Shown one piece after another: positions 1,723 to 8,149 of a stretch of 64,000 nt of DNA. The notes below the pieces were generated by a model. The model ran no database searches, was not told the origin of the DNA, and saw only the letters and a list, made by a program, of their open reading frames with translations. The number at the start of each line of letters is the position of its first letter. The first letter of the stretch is position 1. The translations under genes were made by a program, and so were the position numbers. The DNA is from Myxococcales bacterium. GTDB lineage: Bacteria > Myxococcota > UBA727 > VGSZ01. The stretch spans positions 41,723 through 105,722 of the forward strand of contig JAHFED010000002.1 in the NCBI GenBank assembly GCA_023248635.1. Direction: 5' to 3'.

Positions 1723-2700
1723 GTGGTCTATTTCAGCCCGGCGACCAAAGAAATCACAGCGAAGATCGTCTACTACGGTCCGGGCATGTGTGGAAAGACC
1801 ACGAATCTGCAAAAGGTGCATGAGTTAATGCGCCCGCAGATGAAATCTGAATTGGTGAGTGTTGCCACCGAAACAGACCGCACCATCTACTTCGATTTCC
1901 TGCCGGTGAAGTTGGGCAAGATCGCGGGCTTCGACTTTATCGTCCGCAGCTTTACCGTTCCGGGTCAGCCGTACTATGGCGAGACCCGCAAGATGGTCCT
2001 TCAAGGCGCCGACGGCATCGTCTTCGTCGCCGACAGCCAGCGCTACATGCTGGATCAGAACAAAGACAGCCTCATCGATCTCAAGCGAAATCTAAAGATC
2101 AACGGCCTCGATTACGCCACGATTCCCATCGTACTGCAGTACAACAAACGTGACCTTCCTGACTGCCTTCCCATTGCGGATCTCGAACAGGCGCTCAACG
2201 AGCGGAAGGTGCCCTTTTTCGAAGCCTCGGCGTTCAAGGGCATCGGCGTCGTAGAGACCTTGAAGGCCGTGACCCTGACCGTCTTCAAGCACGTCCGCGA
2301 CGGCGGCATGCAAAACCTCGGCAAGCCCGCAGCATCGCGCAGCACCGTCGCCGTCCCCACAGGTGCCCCCGCCCCGGTTCCGGCCGCCGTGCCGGGTGCG
2401 GCCCTGCCCCGCCCCCCGTCGGCCCCCCGTCCGGTGGCCACGGGCGCTGGGCCCGCGCCCGCCCCGGCCGCCTCCGAGGCCCTGCAAAACTCCATGGGCG
2501 CCCTCATCTCCAACACGCAGGAGGGCACGGCCCCGATGCCGTCGAAAGACGCCATCGGCCTGCAGGAATTCCAGAACATGGCGGTGCTGCACCACCGGCT
2601 GACCGAACGCGTGGCCCAGCTCGAGAAGGAGCTGACCCGCGTGGCGCAAGAGCAGCAGGATCTGAAGCGCATCGTCGGCCGCAAGCTCATGGGCACCTGA
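1723..2700 (+). CDS. MglA-family Ras-like small GTPase with a ~130-aa Pro/Ala-rich and coiled-coil C-terminal extension
   Basis: GTG start. KIVYYGPGMCGKTTN P-loop, TDRTIYFDFLP switch I, VPGQ switch II, and QYNKRDL (NKxD). The first ~195 aa are collinear with MglA as I remember it. Confidence 0.85.
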   Translation: MVYFSPATKEITAKIVYYGPGMCGKTTNLQKVHELMRPQMKSELVSVATETDRTIYFDFLPVKLGKIAGFDFIVRSFTVPGQPYYGETRKMVLQGADGIVFVADSQRYMLDQNKDSLIDLKRNLKINGLDYATIPIVLQYNKRDLPDCLPIADLEQALNERKVPFFEASAFKGIGVVETLKAVTLTVFKHVRDGGMQNLGKPAASRSTVAVPTGAPAPVPAAVPGAALPRPPSAPRPVATGAGPAPAPAASEALQNSMGALISNTQEGTAPMPSKDAIGLQEFQNMAVLHHRLTERVAQLEKELTRVAQEQQDLKRIVGRKLMGT

Positions 2701-2704
2701 AGCA

Positions 2705-3262
2705 ATGGGCAAACGCGCATGCGTGTTGCTGATCGAGGGCTTCGAAGAGACCGAAGCCGTCGTCGTCGTTGACGTGCTGCGCCGGGCCGAGGTCCAGGTC
2801 ACGGTCATCGGCGTCGAGACCCGCAGGGTCACCGGCAGCCATGGCATCTCCATCAACGTCGACGCCGCCCTGCAAGACGTCGTCGCCGTCGGCAGCTGCT
2901 TTGATTGTGTGGTGCTGCCAGGGGGCATGCCGGGTGCCGGCAAGCTGAGAGACAGCGCCATGGTGCAGGAGTTCGTCGTCGCCCAACACGCCGCTGGCGC
3001 CATCGCCTCCGCCATCTGCGCCGCCCCCATCGCGCTGGCAAGGTTCGGCCTGCTGCAGGGCAAGAAGGCCGCGTGCTACCCGGGCTTCGAGGAGCAACTG
3101 GGCGGCGCGCTGGTGCAGGGCGATGCCGTCGTCGTCGACGGCGATGTCGTCACCAGCCGGGGGGTTGGCACAGCCTTGGCCTTCGCTCTGGTCCTGGTCG
3201 ATCGTCTGGCCGGCACCGACATGGCCCGCTCCCTCGCCACCCGCTTGCTCGTCGAGCGTTGA
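2705..3262 (+). CDS. DJ-1/PfpI (ThiJ/YajL-like) family protein
   Basis: Typical DJ-1 layout: VLPGG...., nucleophile-elbow Cys in AICAAP, 185 aa. Confidence 0.8.
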   Translation: MGKRACVLLIEGFEETEAVVVVDVLRRAEVQVTVIGVETRRVTGSHGISINVDAALQDVVAVGSCFDCVVLPGGMPGAGKLRDSAMVQEFVVAQHAAGAIASAICAAPIALARFGLLQGKKAACYPGFEEQLGGALVQGDAVVVDGDVVTSRGVGTALAFALVLVDRLAGTDMARSLATRLLVER

Positions 3263-3295
3263 GCCCCCTTGCTCCAAACGTGATCGGCGCAGGGA

Positions 3296-3910
3296 TCAAT
3301 CCTCCCCTTCGCCCTCCCCCTCCTCGCCGCCGTCCCCCCCCTTCTGGTCGGCGTCGCCTTCGCCTTCCTCGCCCTCACCTTCGTCCCCCTCGCCCTCACC
3401 TTCTTCGCCCTCACCTTCTTCGCCCTCCCCTTCTTCGCCCTCACCTTCTTCGCCCTCACCTTCTTCGCCCTCACCTTCACCTTCACCTTCACCTTCACCT
3501 TCACCTTCACCTTCACCTTCACCTTCGCCTTCGCCTTCGCCCTCGCCACAGGGCTCGAGATTGTCAGCGACGATGCCCGTCGCTGTGGGCCCATCGGCCA
3601 CCGCCAAGGCAAAGGTGCCGCAGCGCCGGGGCTCCAGGGGCGGCACGCTGTTGGCCTCGACGGCGAGACCGAGACCAAAGATGGTGATGGCCCCGTCGTA
3701 GTCGCCGGGCGCCAGGACGAGGGAGAACAGGACGAGGTCGCCTTCGGCGCTGGCCCGCCGGGTTTGGTCAGCGACGACGATCTCGGCCAGCTCATCGTCG
3801 CCGACGCCGACGACGACGACGGTGACGTTGGCTTGCTGCACCAGCTCTTCGGGGCCGCGGCACGATGCAGCGGCCACACAACAAAGCAGTCCCAACCACG
3901 CACGCATCAT
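3296..3910 (-). CDS. Lipoprotein with an 83-aa (GE)n / GEGEE-repeat C-terminus
   Basis: Start re-picked to ATGATG at 3910 (MMRAWLGLLCCVAAASC lipobox). ATGA overlap with the stop of the upstream caspase-like gene. The C-terminus is almost pure Gly/Glu. Confidence 0.7.
   Translation of the reverse strand: MMRAWLGLLCCVAAASCRGPEELVQQANVTVVVVGVGDDELAEIVVADQTRRASAEGDLVLFSLVLAPGDYDGAITIFGLGLAVEANSVPPLEPRRCGTFALAVADGPTATGIVADNLEPCGEGEGEGEGEGEGEGEGEGEGEGEGEGEEGEGEEGEGEEGEGEEGEGEEGEGEGDEGEGEEGEGDADQKGGDGGEEGEGEGED
3299..3547 (-). repeat. Coding simple-sequence repeat: hexamer (ccttca/gccttc)n and 15-mer (ccctcaccttcttcg)n, encoding (GE)n / (GEGEE)n
   Basis: caccttcaccttcaccttc... runs and five near-identical 15-nt units are directly visible. 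Confidence 0.9.
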
Positions 3911-5448
3911 GGAAGAGCGACCTCGCCGTCTTTGAGCGACATGGACCACAGCACCAGTCCGCCGCCGGCGAGGCCCAGGGCCACTGCGCTCACGGTGAGC
4001 GCGGTGGCGCCGTTGCGCCAGCCATCGACCTCGAGAGTGAGGGCCGAATCCAGCTGTCCTGACCGCTCGAAGGATTGCTCAAGCTCTTGAAATGCGAGCT
4101 GGTTGCCGACGACGGCGCCGACGGCCGCAACGCCTGCGAGCCCGGCACTTCCGAGCAGGACGCCGCCGATGGTGCCGATCGGCAGGCGCAGGGGCGGGCT
4201 GCCCGCCGACGACCAGGGAGGCACAAACAACTCCGCTGCGGCCGCCGGCTCCACCAGGGTCTGGGAGGCAAAGAAGCCCCGCACGAACCCTTCGTCGAGG
4301 GGGCGCTCGAAAAGACGCGCAAAGGGGCCGCCGCCGTCGCCGCGGGCCGTTGGTGCGCTGTTGAAGTCGAGGGAAGAGAGCGCATACGCGCCCCCCGAAC
4401 GGGGCACGAGCACAGCCTCGCTGCCATCGCGCTGCACCAAGAAAAAGGGTTGGCCAACCAACGAGAGGTACACCGGGCGATCGCCGGCCCGGTTCACCTC
4501 GGCCCAGGGCACGCCGCGCGAATCGAGCAGACGCACCCGTCCGGGTTGGTCGACGGCGAGAAAGGAGGACGCTCCAGAGCGCCGCAGGTCGACGAGGGCA
4601 GCGTGAGGTCGCTGCAGCGGCGGCTCGGCATAGATCTGCAGCCGTGCCCGGGGATCCTCGATGCCGTGGGAGGCGGCACCGACGAAGGCCGCCGCTTCGC
4701 CATATTCGACGTCGCCGTCGCCGTCGACGTCGCCGCCGCCGGTGAGCGCCGAGCGCAGCAGGTAGGAAAACACCCCAGAAGAAAGAGCCCGCGACTCGTG
4801 CACCTCGGTGGCCTGCGACGTCGACACCATCAGCCCGGTCCGCGCGATGACGTCTTGGGGCAAGGGGTCTTTGAGAGCGTCGAGCAGGGCGGGCGTGAGG
4901 GCGACGCCTTCGTCGCCGTCGCCGCGGCTCTTGACGAAGAAATAGCTGGAGCAGGCGTCGACGATGACGTGGTTGAGATCCGCCGGCGAGGGCAGCAACA
5001 CCTGTCGCGCGAGGTCGCTGCGCGTGAAGGGGCCATCGGCAAAAACCACGAAGCCCTGGCCGCCGTCGTCGACGTCGCCGTGTCCCGCGAAGGCAAACAC
5101 CAGCTCGGTCTGGGCGCCGTGGTCCTTCTCCTGACGCAGCAGCCAAAAGGCTTCGCCCAGGGCGCCAGCGAGGGCCTCTTTGGTGGGTGGACGTGCGATG
5201 TCGACCAGGTCCGGAAAGGCCCGGGCGCTCTCGTGGTCGAAGGTCGTCAACAACCAGGCCCGGCTCGCTCCGGGGGCGAGCTGCAGAAACAGGCGCGCGG
5301 CATCGTCGTCGGCGAAGGAAAGAGGGGAGTGGGGATCAGCGCCGCCCCCGTTGTGGCCGACGACGACGACGACGCGGCCCGGGGCTGGCGCTGCGGGGGC
5401 GACCGCGGTCAGCGAGCACCACAGCACCCACACCACCCCCGCGCTCAT
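3907..5448 (-). CDS. Caspase-like (peptidase C14 / clan CD) protein, exported, with a C-terminal two-helix membrane anchor
   Basis: Signal peptide MSAGVVWVLWCSLTAVAPAAPA. Catalytic-dyad context ELVFAFAGHGD (His) and NHVIVDACSSYFF (Cys) with caspase-like spacing. Two hydrophobic helices lie near the C-terminus (IGGVLLGSAGLAGVAAVGAVV; ALTVSAVALGLAGGGLVLW). Confidence 0.75.
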   Translation of the reverse strand: MSAGVVWVLWCSLTAVAPAAPAPGRVVVVVGHNGGGADPHSPLSFADDDAARLFLQLAPGASRAWLLTTFDHESARAFPDLVDIARPPTKEALAGALGEAFWLLRQEKDHGAQTELVFAFAGHGDVDDGGQGFVVFADGPFTRSDLARQVLLPSPADLNHVIVDACSSYFFVKSRGDGDEGVALTPALLDALKDPLPQDVIARTGLMVSTSQATEVHESRALSSGVFSYLLRSALTGGGDVDGDGDVEYGEAAAFVGAASHGIEDPRARLQIYAEPPLQRPHAALVDLRRSGASSFLAVDQPGRVRLLDSRGVPWAEVNRAGDRPVYLSLVGQPFFLVQRDGSEAVLVPRSGGAYALSSLDFNSAPTARGDGGGPFARLFERPLDEGFVRGFFASQTLVEPAAAAELFVPPWSSAGSPPLRLPIGTIGGVLLGSAGLAGVAAVGAVVGNQLAFQELEQSFERSGQLDSALTLEVDGWRNGATALTVSAVALGLAGGGLVLWSMSLKDGEVALP

Positions 5449-6284
5449 CGTGGCCTGCGCACAATCAAGCGGGACTGCACAGCCACGTCGACGGGCAAGC
5501 GCTCCAGTTGAGCCAGCGGCACACCCGCGCGCAAGGCCCCGTTGAGCCGCTGCTCGACGTCGACGCCCGAGAAGGCCACATCGGAGAGCAGCACAAAGAG
5601 CGTGACGTCGCCGGCGTCGGGCAGGCGGGCCATGGTTGAGAGCAAAGCGTCAGCGGTTCCTGCGGGCACCGCGAGGGCCGACGACGACGGGGCAAAGGGC
5701 GGCAGCCACACGGGCTGCGAGCTTTGATCGATGCCGACCACGAAGGCGAACTGGGCGCGCGGGGAGAGGTTCGTCGTCGAGAAAGCCAAGGTCCCACCGG
5801 GTGCGCAGTCGACGTCGGCCCCGGTCTGTCGCGCGCCGGCGCTGGCCTCGTCGAAGATGGCGCCGTCGATGACGCAGCGCACGTGCACACCCAGCGGGGC
5901 CTGCGCCCCACCCCGAGAGGCAAGGTCGTCGACGGGGAGCGCCCAGAACAAGAACGCGCAGGTGGCCGCCCCCAGGGCTGGCGCCAGCGATCCCCACCAC
6001 GCGCGCATCCCAAGGCGGCCAGCGCTCGGCGCGACATGCGGGGTCTGCTCCTCATCGAGGGCGCCGTCGTCGAGCAGGCGGCGCAAGAGCAGCTCCTGTT
6101 GACCGCTGGACAAGCCGGCAGCGGCCGCGGACCGGTGCTCGGCCCGCCGAAGCAGGTCGTAAGCGGCGGCCACGTCGTCGTCAACGTCGACGACGTCGCA
6201 CATCCAGCGCCGCAACAGCGATGGCAGCGCGCCGCCGCTGTAGGCGGGAAGCAGGCGCAGGGCGATGGCGCGGCGCAGTCCCAT
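5445..6284 (-). CDS. Single-pass membrane protein, putative anti-sigma factor
   Basis: Lies 4 nt downstream of the ECF sigma gene. One TM helix (WWGSLAPALGAATCAFLFWALPV) separates a cytoplasmic N-domain from a ~170-aa periplasmic domain. ATGA overlap with the downstream caspase-like gene. The call rests on position and topology only. Confidence 0.45.
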   Translation of the reverse strand: MGLRRAIALRLLPAYSGGALPSLLRRWMCDVVDVDDDVAAAYDLLRRAEHRSAAAAGLSSGQQELLLRRLLDDGALDEEQTPHVAPSAGRLGMRAWWGSLAPALGAATCAFLFWALPVDDLASRGGAQAPLGVHVRCVIDGAIFDEASAGARQTGADVDCAPGGTLAFSTTNLSPRAQFAFVVGIDQSSQPVWLPPFAPSSSALAVPAGTADALLSTMARLPDAGDVTLFVLLSDVAFSGVDVEQRLNGALRAGVPLAQLERLPVDVAVQSRLIVRRPR

Positions 6285-6288
6285 AGCG

Positions 6289-6918
6289 TCAGTCCTTTCG
6301 TGTCTCTTTGTGCTTACGGCGCAGCAAGCTCGACCCGATCACGACTTTCGCGTTTCTCAAAAAACCTGCCTTGCGCAGGGCGGCCAGCAACGCGGTGCGC
6401 AGGGCGGTGTCTCGTTTGCGCACCTTGGGCTCGCTCCACCCCAAGAGCGCCGCGGCGGCGGCCAGGGAATGCTGCTGCTCGAAGCGGAGCCGAAAGAGCT
6501 CACTCTCCTCGTCGCCGAGCTCCCCCCGCCAGGCCTGCAGGGTGGCATCGAGCTCGCGCTCTTCCTGCCGGGCGGCCGGGTCGTCGTCGGCGAGGAGGGC
6601 CGGCATGTCCTCGGGCGCCCGGGAGTCGAAGCGTCGCTCGATGCGCAGCCGATCCACCACGACGTGCCGGGTGATCGTCGACAGCCAGGCCCCATAGGGA
6701 CGCACGCCATCCCAGGTCGCTCGCGCCTTGGCGCCAAAAGCCTTGGTGAAGACCTCGTGCACCAGCGCTTCGACCTCGTGCTCCGGCGCGCGCGTCGCCC
6801 TGATTTGGCGGGCGACACCGGGGGCATAGAGCTGAAAGACCCGCGCGAGAGCCGCCCGATCTCCTCGACGAAAGCCATCGATGAGGAGCGGCGCACCCTC
6901 GAGCGGGTCCTCAACCAT
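6289..6918 (-). CDS. ECF-type RNA polymerase sigma-70 family factor
   Basis: Region 2-like ...PYGAWLSTITRHVVVDRLRIERR and region 4-like LFRLRFEQQHSLAAAAALLGWSEPKVRKR. 209 aa. Confidence 0.8.
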   Translation of the reverse strand: MVEDPLEGAPLLIDGFRRGDRAALARVFQLYAPGVARQIRATRAPEHEVEALVHEVFTKAFGAKARATWDGVRPYGAWLSTITRHVVVDRLRIERRFDSRAPEDMPALLADDDPAARQEERELDATLQAWRGELGDEESELFRLRFEQQHSLAAAAALLGWSEPKVRKRDTALRTALLAALRKAGFLRNAKVVIGSSLLRRKHKETRKD

Positions 6919-6923
6919 GGCGC

Positions 6924-7889
6924 TCAGTCGTTCTCGCCTTCGCCTTCGCCTTCGCCTTCAGCGCCATCATCGTCCTCGCCAGCGTCGCCAGCGTCGCCGT
7001 CATCGCCACCTTCGCCTTCGCCTTCGCCTTCGCCCTCGTCGTCGCCGTCATCGTCGTCGCCGTCATCGTCTTCGCCGTCATCGTCGTCTTCGCCGTCATC
7101 AGCGTCTTCGCCCTCTTCGCCGTCGTCGGCGTCGCCGTCGTTGTCGTCGTCGTCATCGCTCTCGTCGTTTTCGCCGTCGTTATCGTCGTCGTCGTCGTCG
7201 TCGTCGTTTTCGCCGTCGTTGTCGTCGTCATCGTCGTTGCCATTGTCGATGCCATCGTGGTCATTGTCGTCGTCTTCGTCGGCGTCGTCTTCGTCGGCGG
7301 TGCCATCGCCGTCGTCGTCGTCGTCGACCAGGTCGCAGTCGCCGTCGTCGTCGGTGTCGAGATCTTCATTGTCATCGTCGTCGCCGGAACCGTCAGCGTC
7401 GGTGTCGTCGACGTCAGCGACGTCGTCGTTGTCGTCGTCGTCGTCTTGCAGATCGCTCTCGCCGTCTTCGTCGCTGTCGATTTGATCGAGTGGGTTCTCC
7501 TCGGCCTCGACGTCGTCGCCGGCGGTGGACAGCTGGGCCGTGGTGACGTCGCCCTGCCAGGTCGGCAGGCTCGTGGCGTCGGGGGCGCCGCCAGACTTCG
7601 AGGCGACGCGGAGCACGCGGGTCACGTCTCCCTCGACGACGAACACCGAGACCGGGCGGGCCGAGGCGATGGCCACGCGGAAGGCCCCGTCGGCCGCAGG
7701 AGACGCGCGAAAGGCGTTGCCGCGAGCGTCGATCACCAACACTTCCGCAGCCCCAGCCGGCGCCGTCCCGGTCAGCGCTCGGCCCTCGTCGACGGGGTCC
7801 GGCGGATCGGCGGCGGGGCCGGGGAGGGCGCAGGCAACGAGGGGAAGCAGGGTCGTGGCCACGGCGAATCGAACAAAGGTCTGCATCAT
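6924..7889 (-). CDS. Lipoprotein with an extremely acidic (Asp/Glu/Gly/Asn) C-terminal half ending in (GE)n
   Basis: Start re-picked to ATGATG at 7889 with AGGAG upstream (MMQTFVRFAVATTLLPLVAC lipobox). The N-terminal domain is beta-rich. About 190 aa are nearly pure D/E/G/N. The stop lies 5 nt before the sigma gene. Confidence 0.7.
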   Translation of the reverse strand: MMQTFVRFAVATTLLPLVACALPGPAADPPDPVDEGRALTGTAPAGAAEVLVIDARGNAFRASPAADGAFRVAIASARPVSVFVVEGDVTRVLRVASKSGGAPDATSLPTWQGDVTTAQLSTAGDDVEAEENPLDQIDSDEDGESDLQDDDDDNDDVADVDDTDADGSGDDDDNEDLDTDDDGDCDLVDDDDDGDGTADEDDADEDDDNDHDGIDNGNDDDDDNDGENDDDDDDDDNDGENDESDDDDDNDGDADDGEEGEDADDGEDDDDGEDDDGDDDDGDDEGEGEGEGEGGDDGDAGDAGEDDDGAEGEGEGEGEND

Positions 7890-8149
7890 GACTCCTGGGG
7901 CTGCCTGACGCAGCCGTGGAAGGCCGAACAACTCGGTTCCTGGGGTTTACGGCGCAGCCGCAGCGCCGCGATCGACTTTCTGCTGAGGGGATGTAGATCG
8001 CTCGCCAGCGCACACTCCAGCGCGCAGCGACGCGGGCTGCATCGACCTCGGCGAAAGCGGGTCACAACAACGTCCCAGTTCGCATCGTCCGGCCGCTCGC
8101 GTTGCCGCTTTCCTGGCCTGCTCCGTAGCCTGTCGATCGGGGTACAAAC

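What the first reader, a model, noticed from the sequence alone, without database searches (positions are those of the whole stretch)
3296..7889. Tightly coupled five-gene operon linking an ECF sigma/anti-sigma pair to an exported, membrane-anchored caspase-like protease and two (GE)n-tailed lipoproteins
The gene order on the minus strand is acidic lipoprotein (7889-6924), ECF sigma (6918-6289), single-pass membrane protein (6284-5445), caspase-like protein (5448-3907), then (GE)n lipoprotein (3910-3296). The spacers are 5, 4, -4 (ATGA) and -4 (ATGA) nt, which implies co-translation and fixed stoichiometry. The caspase-like protein has a Sec signal, an intact His/Cys dyad context (FAFAGHGD; VIVDACSS), and two C-terminal TM helices. 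Its protease domain would therefore face the periplasm next to the periplasmic domain of the presumed anti-sigma. That periplasmic domain loosely resembles the DUF4384-type module that often accompanies bacterial caspases (recollection, low confidence). My hypothesis is that a clan-CD protease acts as the site-1 protease, or as the sensor, for regulated proteolysis of the anti-sigma. That would be a surface-signalling design different from the known DegS/RseP or Prc types. Alternatively, the sigma factor could control a caspase-based envelope or death module.
Basis: partly seen in the sequence, partly recalled or inferred. Interest (0 to 1): 0.65.

Follow-up and report, generated by a model that had tools for sequence, protein, structure and literature searches.

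The report
Sigma/anti-sigma pair with dedicated periplasmic caspase-like protease
This groundwater myxobacterial locus encodes a stress-type sigma factor, its membrane anti-sigma factor and an exported caspase-like protease; the three genes stay together across Myxococcota, and conserved Arg-Gly motifs suggest, without proving, that the protease cuts the anti-sigma factor to switch the system on.

Summary
Five minus-strand genes lie at the stated coordinates, with spacers of 5 nt, 4 nt, ATGA and ATGA.

- **B** is an ECF sigma factor.
- **C** belongs to a zf-HC2 (ZAS) anti-sigma family, although this copy has lost its zinc ligands.
- **D** is an exported clan-CD/C14 protease. His123, Cys166 and an acidic S1 pocket (D47-49, D164) are invariant in 81/81 relatives. 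It also has a canonical EF-hand loop and a C-terminal hydrophobic helical hairpin.

The order B-C-D is conserved in 65 of 80 Myxococcota genome loci, and B and/or C is present in 78 of 80. A and E are specific to this clade, but a variable lipoprotein gene follows D in at least 33 of 74 loci.

New evidence for the site-1 idea is a shared motif. The only near-invariant residue across the anti-sigma family is Arg124, in a floppy juxtamembrane motif Φ-x-small-R-G. The protease carries the same motif (R175-G176) where caspases autoprocess. The pattern resembles the LVSR preference of MALT1, the best structural match to D.

No cleavage has been shown. DdvA (a fused CHAT domain) and craspase are precedents, so I rate this a new variant of a known kind.

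The parts
7936..7951 (-). Candidate ECF-type promoter element CGTAAACCCCAGGAAC (GGAAC as the -35 element), 47-62 nt upstream of the gene A start. This is a lead only.
   Evidence: It is the only intergenic element shared with the closest relative L081. It is unique in the 64-kb window, with 0.03 matches expected by chance. No sigma-70 promoter was found in 3000-8400.
6924..7889 (-). Gene A: a lipoprotein of 321 aa with lipobox LVAC (Cys20). It has an N-terminal domain of about 110 aa and a 191-aa polyanionic tail encoded at 6927-7499.
   Evidence: ORF and junction. The tail has 93 D and 25 E, no K or R, and nine DxDxDG-like motifs. No Pfam or NCBIfam hit. It is conserved only in the close clade L081, L001, L003 and L083.
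6289..6918 (-). Gene B: an ECF (group 4) sigma factor of 209 aa.
   Evidence: TIGR02937 scores 50.6 bits against a cut-off of 42.9. Sigma70_r2 and Sigma70_ECF score above their cut-offs. The closest solved structures are the ECF-subfamily sigma chain 6dxo_A (E 2e-8; BldN by recollection) and CnrH. It lies next to the D family in 72/80 loci.
5445..6284 (-). Gene C: a single-pass anti-sigma factor of 279 aa. It has a cytoplasmic four-helix domain (6045-6284), a TM helix (5934-5996), a floppy linker and a periplasmic beta-sandwich (5457-5894).
   Evidence: The family profile A3 hits RsiW 5wuq (E 3e-7), ChrR, DdvA 8rlz and 3hug_B (RslA by recollection). 32/51 members match zf-HC2. The window copy lacks the His/Cys ligands. 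AF2 model: pLDDT 83.5, linker about 53. Foldseek finds only generic Ig-like folds.
5910..5924 (-). Juxtamembrane motif L121-A-S-R124-G125 of C. The family consensus is [F/L/W]-x-[A/S/P]-R-[G/S]. This is the predicted site-1 cleavage site.
   Evidence: R124 is Arg in 50/51 and Lys in 1/51 family members that share only about 20% identity. It is the only near-invariant residue besides P196. It lies in the low-confidence linker of the model.
3907..5448 (-). Gene D: an exported clan-CD / Peptidase_C14-like protease of 513 aa. Its parts are a signal peptide (5383-5448), a caspase-fold domain (4654-5379), a beta-sandwich (4369-4638) and two hydrophobic C-terminal helices (4108-4176 and 3949-4017).
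   Evidence: AF2 model: pLDDT 88.3, pTM 0.83. Foldseek: MALT1 (E 8.5e-7), metacaspase-9, caspases, gingipain, legumain. 34/41 relatives hit Peptidase_C14. Signal peptides and TM pairs across the family. 960 clusters at 50% identity score E<=1e-30.
5302..5310 (-). D47-D48-D49 at the start of helix alpha1. This is the predicted acidic S1 pocket, which would give Arg/Lys specificity at P1.
   Evidence: Invariant in 81/81 members. The helix starts at residue 46 in the model. It occupies the same topological place as TbMCA2 Asp95 and MALT1 Asp365 (PMC4357240).
5080..5082 (-). Catalytic His123, within the G-H-G motif.
   Evidence: Invariant in 81/81 members.
4951..4959 (-). D164-A-C166: the catalytic Cys, with the L4 Asp two residues before it.
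   Evidence: D164 and C166 are invariant in 81/81 members. The Asp two residues before the Cys corresponds to TbMCA2 Asp211 and MALT1 Asp462 in the S1 pocket.
4921..4926 (-). R175-G176: a predicted autoprocessing site at the start of the disordered loop 176-193, the equivalent of the caspase intersubunit linker.
   Evidence: R in 79/81 and G in 69/81 members (40/41 for each in A4). pLDDT is below 50 for residues 176-193.
4696..4731 (-). EF-hand-type Ca2+-binding loop, D240-V-D-G-D-G-D-V-E-Y-G-E251, flanked by helices 226-238 and 249-260.
   Evidence: The family profile hits EF-hand loops of calcium-binding proteins (E 1e-5). Pfam EF-hand_5 matches 9 and EF-hand_1 matches 5 of 41 relatives. Loop positions 1, 3, 5, 6, 8 and 12 are conserved in 74-80 of 81 members.
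3296..3910 (-). Gene E: a lipoprotein of 204 aa with lipobox AASC (Cys17). It has an N-terminal domain of about 105 aa and a (GE)n/(EGEGE)n tail encoded at 3299-3544.
   Evidence: ORF and ATGA overlap. Tandem DNA repeats of 6 and 15 nt. The tail has 40 acidic residues out of 74. The N-terminal domain is conserved in L081, L082, L001, L003 and L006. A lipoprotein gene follows D in at least 33/74 loci.

Best explanation
This is a self-contained envelope-signalling cassette, conserved across Myxococcota. The ECF sigma factor B is held at the inner membrane by the single-pass ZAS-family anti-sigma factor C.

The next gene, D, encodes an exported metacaspase/paracaspase-like cysteine protease. It is anchored in the membrane by a C-terminal helical hairpin, so its active site sits in the periplasm beside C.

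Proposed mechanism:
1. On a signal, possibly gated by Ca2+ through the EF-hand loop and/or relayed by the neighbouring lipoprotein, D matures by cutting its own linker at R175|G176.
2. D then cuts C after Arg124, in the floppy juxtamembrane motif Φ-x-small-R|G.
3. The short periplasmic stub that remains is a substrate for an RseP-type site-2 protease.
4. Sigma B is released and transcribes its own operon and unknown targets.

Shown here: the gene identities and folds, export signals, the conserved dyad and acidic pocket, the conserved motifs, phylum-wide synteny, and clade-specific ECF-like promoter motifs upstream of the sigma gene.

Inferred: sigma binding by C, every proteolytic step, the role of Ca2+ and the role of the lipoproteins.
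For: 1. Synteny. B-C-D occurs in the same order and strand in 65/80 genome loci from Myxococcaceae to Nannocystaceae and Bradymonadia, and B and/or C is present in 78/80. The flanking genes are not conserved.
2. C is a ZAS anti-sigma factor by profile homology. Its model shows a four-helix N-domain, a TM helix, a disordered linker and a beta-sandwich.
3. D has a caspase fold. H123, C166, D164 and D47-49 are invariant in 81/81 members. These positions match the acidic S1 pockets of the Arg-specific TbMCA2 and MALT1.
4. Across an anti-sigma family sharing about 20% identity, the only near-invariant residue is Arg124 (50 R and 1 K of 51). Its neighbours are a hydrophobic P4, a small P2 and Gly/Ser at P1'.
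5. D carries the same motif, [LFM][AV]x[SGA]-R-G, 9 residues after the catalytic Cys at the start of a disordered loop. This is the position where caspases autoprocess.
6. The motif pattern matches the preference of MALT1, the top structural hit: Leu at P4, a tolerant P3, small Ser/Pro/Ala at P2 and near-absolute Arg at P1 (PMC3304489).
7. Bipartite ECF-like motifs lie upstream of the sigma gene and differ by clade. TTCGTCCA-N16-CGTT occurs in 13 loci and CAACCCA-N16-ATAG in 9, which fits autoregulation.
8. There is a precedent in the same phylum. DdvA fuses a periplasmic caspase-fold CHAT domain to a ZAS anti-sigma factor, is processed by RseP, and is proposed to autocleave in its TM-proximal linker (PMC11506125).
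Against: - There are no experimental data for any member. The source is a DNA-only groundwater metagenome, so even co-transcription is unverified.
- The window's D scores below the Pfam C14 threshold, and its signal peptide lacks a basic N-region.
- The window's C has lost the zinc ligands, so its binding to sigma rests on homology alone.
- The conserved Arg could be structural, a docking or pseudo-substrate residue, or the site for a different protease.
- ECF operons often carry output genes, so linkage alone does not make D a regulator.
- The loop between D's two hydrophobic helices is net acidic. That is not what the positive-inside rule predicts for a cytoplasmic loop.
- Nannocystaceae variants of D lack the membrane hairpin altogether.
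- No complex model of D with C could be run.
Confidence: 0.5

Rival explanations
1. D is an output of the sigma factor rather than its activator. On this view the operon is an autoregulated ECF unit, and its co-transcribed cargo is an envelope protease that processes other substrates. Candidates include the variable lipoprotein encoded just downstream, or surface and matrix proteins. C would be cleaved by generic proteases of the DegS/Prc/RseP type.
For: Cargo genes are common in ECF operons (general knowledge). A lipoprotein gene follows D in at least 33/74 loci and often overlaps its stop codon. These lipoproteins carry adhesion or ligand-binding modules (VWA, Big_6, FG-GAP/TIG, TSP_3), which could be protease substrates. 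Variants of D without a membrane anchor exist.
Against: The core that travels together is sigma, anti-sigma and protease, not protease and lipoprotein. The lipoprotein is absent from Nannocystaceae-type loci. This view does not explain why the one near-invariant residue of the anti-sigma factor is an Arg in a motif mirrored in the protease.
Confidence: 0.25
2. D and C form a non-destructive regulatory complex. Either D acts as a co-anti-sigma factor or sensor that shields C, as RseB does on RseA. Or the C linker and beta-sandwich act as a pseudo-substrate inhibitor of D, as securin does on separase, so that the sigma pathway reports on or restrains protease activity.
For: The pattern of a conserved Arg in a floppy linker facing an acidic S1 pocket equally fits an inhibitory pseudo-substrate. 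The proteins are predicted to sit side by side in the membrane. Clan-CD enzymes are often held by pocket-occupying segments, as in legumain AP and the gingipain prodomain (PMC4357240).
Against: The dyad and S1 pocket are fully invariant in 81/81 members, which argues for real catalysis. A Gly at P1' and a small P2 are typical of cleaved sites rather than inhibitors.
Confidence: 0.15
3. This is the first reader's alternative: a caspase-based death or defence module placed under sigma control.
For: Bacterial caspase-like proteases take part in some abortive-infection and conflict systems (general knowledge). NCBIfam gave a weak hit to 'caspase, EACC1-associated type' (E 0.0055, 16 bits against a cut-off of 140).
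Against: The protease is exported rather than cytoplasmic. No defence genes are linked to it in 80 loci. The neighbours in the window are housekeeping-type genes. The NCBIfam hit is far below its cut-off.
Confidence: 0.05

Closest known systems
[quoted passage not shown]
   Same: Both come from the same phylum. Both combine an ECF sigma factor, a single-pass zinc-finger-type anti-sigma factor and a periplasmic caspase-fold module with a His-Cys dyad. In both cases cleavage is proposed in the flexible TM-proximal linker, followed by RseP. The C-family profile hits the DdvA N-domain (8rlz, E 1.7e-4).
   Different: In DdvA the caspase-fold domain is a CHAT domain fused to the anti-sigma factor behind TPR repeats, and it is proposed to act on the partner protomer within a DdvA dimer. 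Here it is a separate C14-like polypeptide with its own signal peptide, EF-hand loop, beta-sandwich and membrane hairpin. The anti-sigma factor here carries only a small beta-sandwich. DdvS controls a CBASS/CRISPR island, and no such genes occur here.
Craspase (type III-E gRAMP-Csx29 TPR-CHAT protease)
   Same: A clan-CD caspase-like protease acts on putative anti-sigma factors (as summarised in PMC11506125). From memory, the substrate is Csx30, which holds an ECF sigma factor.
   Different: Craspase is cytoplasmic, activated by guide RNA, and part of CRISPR defence. Its cleavage sites are not Arg-based (after M or L).
Regulated intramembrane proteolysis of anti-sigma factors: RseA by DegS and RseP, RsiW by PrsW and RasP, FecR-type by Prc and RseP
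   Same: The proposed logic is the same: a periplasmic site-1 cut near the membrane, an intramembrane site-2 cut, then sigma release. RsiW is the best PDB match of the C-family N-domain.
   Different: The known site-1 enzymes are serine or metallo-proteases, and most are shared housekeeping enzymes encoded elsewhere. Here the candidate is a dedicated, operon-encoded cysteine protease of clan CD.
Metacaspases, orthocaspases and the paracaspase MALT1 (Peptidase_C14B)
   Same: D shares the caspase-hemoglobinase fold, the His/Cys dyad, and Asp residues on alpha1 and two residues before the Cys, which predict a basic P1. Many metacaspases depend on calcium, and type II metacaspases have conserved autoprocessing sites (PMC4357240). 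MALT1 prefers LVSR|G.
   Different: D is exported to the periplasm and membrane-anchored. Its putative Ca2+ site is a canonical EF-hand loop rather than the metacaspase Asp cluster. The window copy fails the Pfam C14 threshold, and no PDB caspase is found by sequence search.

Membership tests
ECF (group 4) sigma-70 factors | Sigma-2 and sigma-4 regions only, matching the ECF superfamily models above their cut-offs. | tested here: met
   TIGR02937 scores 50.6 against 42.9, Sigma70_r2 25.6 against 24, and Sigma70_ECF 24.3 against 21.1. The region 4 models score below their cut-offs (18.6 and 17.3). No named equivalog is reached: the BldN family scores 53.8 against 206.
Class I / ZAS (zf-HC2) anti-sigma factors | An N-terminal anti-sigma helical domain homologous to those of RsiW, ChrR and RslA. 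| tested here: met
   The family profile A3 hits RsiW (E 3.3e-7), ChrR (3e-5), DdvA (1.7e-4) and 3hug_B (7e-4; RslA by recollection). 32/51 members hit Pfam zf-HC2. The window model has four helices spanning residues 3-80. The window copy alone gives no Pfam hit.
Class I / ZAS (zf-HC2) anti-sigma factors | The H-x3-C-x2-C zinc-binding motif. | tested here: not met
   Relatives carry HLxxCxxCRxxY. The window and its close clade have L..D..LAAAYDAL at that position, with no His or Cys. This copy is therefore a zinc-less derivative of the family.
Class I / ZAS (zf-HC2) anti-sigma factors | A single TM helix, with the gene directly downstream of its sigma gene. | tested here: met
   The TM helix spans about residues 97-117. 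The spacer after B is 4 nt. The same arrangement occurs in 65/80 loci.
Class I / ZAS (zf-HC2) anti-sigma factors | Binds and inhibits its cognate sigma factor. | not testable with these tools
   This needs a two-hybrid, pull-down or reporter assay.
Peptidase_C14 (caspase/metacaspase), clan CD | A match to the family HMM above its gathering score. | tested here: not met
   The window protein scores 14.1 bits against a cut-off of 21.4, with E 0.038. At family level, 34/41 distant relatives match at E<=0.01, with a best E-value of 2e-13.
Peptidase_C14 (caspase/metacaspase), clan CD | The caspase-hemoglobinase fold. | tested here: met
   The AF2 model has pLDDT 88. Foldseek gives probability 1.00 for MALT1, AtMC9, CED-3 and caspase-7, and also hits legumain and gingipain.
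Peptidase_C14 (caspase/metacaspase), clan CD | A His-Cys catalytic dyad following successive central beta-strands, with Gly next to the His. | tested here: met
   G-H123-G follows strand 114-121 and D-A-C166 follows strand 158-164. All are invariant in 81/81 members.
Peptidase_C14 (caspase/metacaspase), clan CD | Proteolytic activity and P1 specificity. | not testable with these tools
   Arg/Lys at P1 is predicted from D47-49 and D164, by comparison with TbMCA2 and MALT1. An enzyme assay is needed.
EF-hand calcium-binding loop | A 12-residue loop with D/N at positions 1, 3 and 5, G at 6, a hydrophobic residue at 8 and E at 12, lying between two helices. | tested here: met
   The loop D240-x-D-x-D-G-x-V-x-x-x-E251 lies between helices 226-238 and 249-260. 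The profile hits EF-hand proteins. Pfam EF-hand models match 9 and 5 of 41 relatives. Metal binding itself was not tested.
DUF4384 (PF14326) | A match to the Pfam model in the periplasmic domain of C. | tested here: inconclusive
   The window copy gives no hit at E<=1. 6/51 relatives hit weakly, with a best E-value of 0.014. Foldseek finds only generic beta-sandwiches with E>=4e-3.
Bacterial lipoproteins (genes A and E) | A signal peptide ending in a lipobox [LVI][ASTVI][GAS]C. | tested here: met
   A has LPLVA-C20 and E has VAAAS-C17. This is a pattern match only, and acylation was not tested.

The most novel reading that the evidence does not exclude
Myxococcota use a previously unrecognised class of dedicated site-1 protease. 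This is an operon-encoded, periplasmic, membrane-tethered metacaspase-like enzyme with an EF-hand Ca2+ switch. It autoprocesses at Φ-x-small-R|G and then cleaves its partner anti-sigma factor at the same motif a few residues outside the membrane. A variable lipoprotein encoded next door would serve as an interchangeable ligand-sensing input. This would be a split, in-trans version of the DdvA design. It would define a family of about 1,000 clusters at 50% identity, making it a large group of caspase-driven transmembrane signalling systems in bacteria.
Probability: 0.4. Interest if true: 0.78.

Novelty: new variant of a known kind. Interest (0 to 1): 0.62.

Why it matters
Regulated proteolysis of anti-sigma factors is a central route by which bacteria sense their envelope and surroundings. 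The known site-1 enzymes are serine or metallo-proteases.

A dedicated, co-encoded caspase-family enzyme would add a new protease class to that scheme. It would give bacterial C14 proteases, whose physiological substrates are mostly unknown, a concrete substrate and a predicted cleavage motif. It would also link to the emerging theme that caspase-fold proteases control ECF sigma factors, as in DdvA and craspase.

The hypothesis is directly testable. Cultured myxobacteria carry the cassette, including Myxococcus spp., Archangium violaceum, Hyalangium versicolor, Enhygromyxa salina and Paraliomyxa miuraensis. The residues to mutate are C166, H123, R175 and the EF-hand loop in D, and R124 in C.

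Tried and rejected
- **Window proteins A, C and E against Pfam and NCBIfam:** no hits.
- **PDB sequence search with the D-family profile:** it found only EF-hand loops and no caspase. The caspase assignment therefore rests on Pfam hits in relatives and on the predicted fold.
- **Foldseek on the C model:** it gave only generic Ig-like sandwiches such as PDE6D, RhoGDI and MSP. This does not inform function.
- **A and E N-terminal domains:** they are not detectably related to each other.
- **BLAST clustering of flanking ORFs:** no conserved neighbour was found beyond B-C-D, with at most 7 loci sharing one. This run missed the fast-evolving lipoproteins, which were recovered later by lipobox and motif scans.
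- **Window promoter:** neither clade-specific motif (TTCGTCCA-N16-CGTT, CAACCCA-N16-ATAG) occurs upstream of A or B. Only a GGAAC-containing element shared with one relative was found, and three attempts to fetch more close relatives returned gene maps without DNA.
- **RNA evidence:** only groundwater DNA runs hold the sequence.
- **Literature:** the main text of the ECF reclassification paper does not mention caspase or DUF4384, and its supplements are not held. Searches for orthocaspase or metacaspase with anti-sigma or ECF returned only the DdvA papers.
- **Negative control:** I looked at the genes next to unrelated sigma genes in three loci. These were too few and too different to serve as a control.
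- **Complex model:** a model of C with D could not be run, because of the structure-prediction cap and input restrictions.

Full report
**1. The observation**

The six-frame ORF list and the minus-strand sequence confirm five consecutive minus-strand genes:
- A, 6924-7889
- B, 6289-6918
- C, 5445-6284
- D, 3907-5448
- E, 3296-3910

The junctions are exactly as described. There are 5 nt (gcgcc) between A and B, 4 nt (cgct) between B and C, and ATGA start/stop overlaps at C/D and D/E. An AGGAG sequence lies 5 nt before the ATG at 7889.

The unit is bounded by unrelated genes. A convergent DJ-1/PfpI gene ends at 3262. A divergent gene at 8150 encodes a protein with two LamG domains. Further out lie a metallo-beta-lactamase-fold gene, an MglA-like small GTPase and an ABC-F ATPase. 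The region is about 68-70% G+C. The sequence occurs only in groundwater metagenome DNA runs. Relatives are all Myxococcota.

**2. What the genes are**

*Gene B* is an ECF sigma factor. TIGR02937, Sigma70_r2 and Sigma70_ECF all score above their cut-offs. It reaches no named equivalog. Its nearest solved relatives are the ECF-subfamily sigma chain 6dxo_A (BldN by my recollection) and CnrH.

*Gene C* has no Pfam or NCBIfam hit on its own.
- I iterated a profile over the ORFs of 80 related loci, which recovered a homologous gene in 77 of them.
- A 51-member alignment of that family hits the anti-sigma domains of RsiW (E 3e-7), ChrR, M. xanthus DdvA and 3hug_B (RslA by recollection) in the PDB.
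- 32 of the 51 members match Pfam zf-HC2.
- Distant members carry the classic HLxxCxxCRxxY zinc motif. The window copy and its close clade have replaced the ligands, reading L..D..LAAAYDAL.
- The AF2 model (pLDDT 83.5) shows four N-terminal helices (3-80), a TM helix (101-115), a low-confidence linker (116-130) and a confident beta-sandwich (131-276).
- That sandwich has only generic Ig-like structural neighbours. Its link to DUF4384 is weak and partial: 6/51 members, with a best E-value of 0.014.

*Gene D* scores below the Pfam C14 threshold, but the caspase assignment is secure for several reasons.
- 34/41 distant relatives match Peptidase_C14, with a best E-value of 2e-13.
- The AF2 model (pLDDT 88, pTM 0.83) matches MALT1, Arabidopsis metacaspase-9, CED-3, caspases, legumain and gingipain.
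- H123, C166, H160, D164 and D47-D48-D49 are invariant in all 81 family sequences examined.

Relatives have textbook Sec signal peptides, for example MKRALLLLLCCAALVVAPQLRA|AP. Most have two C-terminal hydrophobic helices. A Nannocystaceae subgroup instead has a long C-terminal extension and no anchor.

The family is large and uncharacterised. It has 960 clusters at 50% identity with E<=1e-30, and the few named members are called 'hypothetical protein' or 'caspase family protein'.

*Genes A and E* are lipoproteins, with lipoboxes LVA-C20 and AAS-C17. Each has a small N-terminal domain and a polyanionic low-complexity tail.
- A's tail is 191 aa long, with 93 Asp and 25 Glu, no Lys or Arg, and nine DxDxDG-like motifs.
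- E's tail is a (GE)n/(EGEGE)n array built from 6- and 15-nt tandem DNA repeats.

**3. What travels together**

A scan of one genome per species returned 80 loci. The organisms include Enhygromyxa salina, Paraliomyxa miuraensis, Hyalangium versicolor, Archangium violaceum and several Myxococcus species.
- B-C-D occurs in the same order and on the same strand in 65 loci.
- In six further loci B and/or C is present but rearranged.
- Most of the remainder are contigs truncated at the upstream end.
- Only two loci show no sigma/anti-sigma pair at all.

Nothing else in the flanks is broadly conserved. The conserved core is therefore a three-gene cassette.

A and E belong only to the window's clade. 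The window, L081, L082 and L001/L083 show them, as do L003 and the contigs carrying P0005 and P0013. L006 has the E-like gene only.

A lipoprotein gene does follow D in at least 33 of 74 loci, and it often overlaps D's stop codon. At least 15 of these share an N-terminal PCPCxxGWxCC motif. Their C-terminal parts vary widely: VWA, Big_6/Big_13, FG-GAP/TIG, TSP_3 and MopE-like.

**4. Evidence bearing on mechanism**

(a) *Specificity pocket.* In Arg/Lys-specific C14B enzymes, the S1 pocket is formed by an Asp on helix alpha1 and an Asp two residues before the catalytic Cys. These are TbMCA2 Asp95/Asp211 and MALT1 Asp365/Asp462 (PMC4357240). D has the invariant D47-49 at the start of its alpha1, where the model helix starts at residue 46. 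It also has the invariant D164-x-C166. A basic P1 is therefore predicted. This is an inference from topology, and I did not superpose the structures.

(b) *A candidate substrate site.* The anti-sigma family shares only about 20% identity overall. The only near-invariant residues are Arg124 (50 Arg and 1 Lys of 51) and Pro196. Arg124 sits in a juxtamembrane motif: [D/E][G/E]-[F/L/W]-x-[A/S/P]-R-[G/S]. The motif lies a variable 5-35 residues after the TM helix, inside the linker that AF2 models with low confidence.

(c) *The same motif in the protease.* R175-G176 is preceded by a small residue and a hydrophobic residue. R175 is present in 79/81 members. It lies 9 residues after the catalytic Cys, at the start of the only disordered loop of the model (176-193, pLDDT below 50). 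This is where caspases and type II metacaspases autoprocess (for metacaspases).

(d) *Match to a known specificity.* The pattern is hydrophobic P4, free P3, small P2 and Arg at P1. That is the preference measured for MALT1: Leu-Val-Ser-Arg, with Arg near-absolute, Leu strongly favoured at P4, and Ser/Pro/Ala at P2 (PMC3304489). MALT1 is also the best structural match to D. I treat this as a resemblance and not a test.

(e) *Calcium.* A canonical EF-hand loop (D240-x-D-x-D-G-x-V-x-x-x-E251) lies between two helices. It is conserved in 74-80 of 81 members at each key position. It is recognised by PDB EF-hand proteins and by Pfam EF-hand models. Many metacaspases require Ca2+.

(f) *Autoregulation.* Bipartite ECF-like motifs lie 50-100 nt upstream of the sigma gene, and they differ by clade. 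TTCGTCCA-N16-CGTT occurs in 13 loci and CAACCCA-N16-ATAG in 9 loci. In the window, the only candidate is a unique CGTAA-N5-AGGAAC element at 7951-7936, shared with the closest relative L081. This is a lead only.

**5. Most likely mechanism**

I propose a regulated-proteolysis cassette.
1. C sequesters B at the inner membrane.
2. D is exported and tethered beside C, and it is activated. Activation may involve Ca2+ and/or the neighbouring lipoprotein, and may include self-cleavage at R175|G176.
3. D cuts C after Arg124.
4. The short remaining stub is then a substrate for an RseP-type site-2 protease, and B is released.

Gene identities, folds, motifs, export signals and synteny are shown by the results above. 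Sigma binding, every cleavage step and the nature of the signal are inferred. I put this at about 0.5.

Three rivals remain.
- D is simply cargo of the operon and acts on other envelope substrates (0.25).
- D and C form a non-destructive complex, either RseB-like shielding or securin-like pseudo-substrate inhibition (0.15).
- The locus is a death or defence module (0.05). For this I found no support: the protease is exported and no defence genes are linked to it.

Several points count against the favoured model.
- The window copy's signal peptide is weak, and its C14 score is below threshold.
- The loop between D's two hydrophobic helices is acidic.
- Some D variants have no membrane anchor.
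- There are no experimental or transcript data for any member.

**6. Comparison with what is known**

The closest system is M. xanthus DdvS/DdvA. There, a ZAS anti-sigma factor carries a periplasmic TPR-CHAT caspase-fold domain. It is processed by RseP and is proposed to autocleave in trans in its TM-proximal linker (PMC11506125). The present cassette looks like a split version of that design, with five differences:
- The protease is a separate C14-like polypeptide.
- It has its own membrane anchor.
- It has an EF-hand loop.
- There are no TPR repeats.
- The anti-sigma ectodomain is a small beta-sandwich.

Craspases are a cytoplasmic, RNA-guided parallel. The DegS/PrsW/Prc paradigms share the logic but use other protease classes.

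Full-text searches found no description of this cassette. The supplements of the ECF reclassification paper, where such a group might be listed, are not held.

I therefore rate it a new variant of a known kind. The interest lies in the phylum-wide conservation and in a precise, testable cleavage-site prediction. It is tempered by the existing precedents and by the absence of any functional data.

Noticed in passing
window 4696-4731 (-), D residues 240-251: A canonical EF-hand Ca2+-binding loop sits inside the caspase domain.
   Followed up: yes
window 4921-4926 (-), D residues R175-G176: A near-invariant Arg-Gly pair lies 9 residues after the catalytic Cys, at the start of the only disordered loop. 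It looks like an autoprocessing site and mirrors the motif in the anti-sigma linker.
   Followed up: yes
window 6150-6210 (-), C residues about 25-45: The window's anti-sigma factor and its close clade have lost the H-x3-C-x2-C zinc ligands that distant family members keep. The copy is a zinc-less ZAS derivative.
   Followed up: partly
L047, L051, L054, L058, L059, L063, L065, L067-L071, L074, L078 and others, immediately downstream of the D homologue: These loci encode lipoproteins that share an N-terminal Cys-rich motif, (R)PCPCxxGWxCC. Their C-terminal domains are highly variable: VWA, Big_6, FG-GAP/TIG, beta-propeller-like repeats and TSP_3. They could be interchangeable sensors or substrates.
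   Followed up: partly
L037, L042, L047, L054, L058, L059, L064, L066-L069, L071, L074 (about 50-100 nt upstream of the sigma gene); L018-L022, L026, L030, L031, L044, L046: Two bipartite promoter-like motifs occur upstream of the sigma gene, one per clade: TTCGTCCA-N16-CGTT and CAACCCA-N16-(C/G)ATAG. They are presumably the autoregulated ECF promoters.
   Followed up: partly
L015, L017-L022, L026, L027, L030, L031, L044, L046, L060: A variant of the protease, mostly in Nannocystaceae, is 720-1070 aa long. It has a long C-terminal extension and no membrane hairpin, and these loci have no downstream lipoprotein.
   Followed up: no
window 6365-6379 (-): A terminator-like hairpin followed by a T-run (CCTGCGCAAGGCAGG TTTTTT) lies inside the 3' end of the sigma gene, about 75 nt before its stop codon. 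It could be chance or an attenuator between the sigma and anti-sigma genes.
   Followed up: no
window 3354-3547 and 7036-7445: The acidic tails of E and A are encoded by long tandem arrays with periods of 6, 12, 15 and 30 nt. Such arrays are likely to vary in length between strains. Relatives have DAG- or GE-type linkers at the same place.
   Followed up: no
window 6927-7499 (-), A tail: The tail holds nine DxDxDG-like motifs and has a net charge of about -118. It may be a high-capacity divalent-cation binder. This is notable beside an EF-hand protease, but it rests on composition alone.
   Followed up: no
L081 1177-1833 (+): The closest relative's genome carries a second copy of the A-type N-terminal domain (54% identity) about 3 kb upstream of the operon.
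   Followed up: no
window 8150-10390 (+): A 746-aa protein is transcribed divergently from the operon. It has two LamG/Laminin_G_3 domains, a repetitive Asp/Val-rich region, and a C-terminal Cys-Gly, hydrophobic, RRR tail that resembles a MYXO-CTERM sorting signal. It is not conserved next to the cassette in relatives.
   Followed up: partly
window 1723-2700 (+): An MglA-like small GTPase (Arf/Ras family hits) carries a Pro/Ala-rich and coiled C-terminal extension of about 130 aa.
   Followed up: no
window 4015-4110 (-), D residues 447-478: The loop between D's two hydrophobic helices is conserved (N449, L456, D467) but net acidic. That is unusual for a cytoplasmic loop, so the topology of the hairpin is uncertain.
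   Followed up: no
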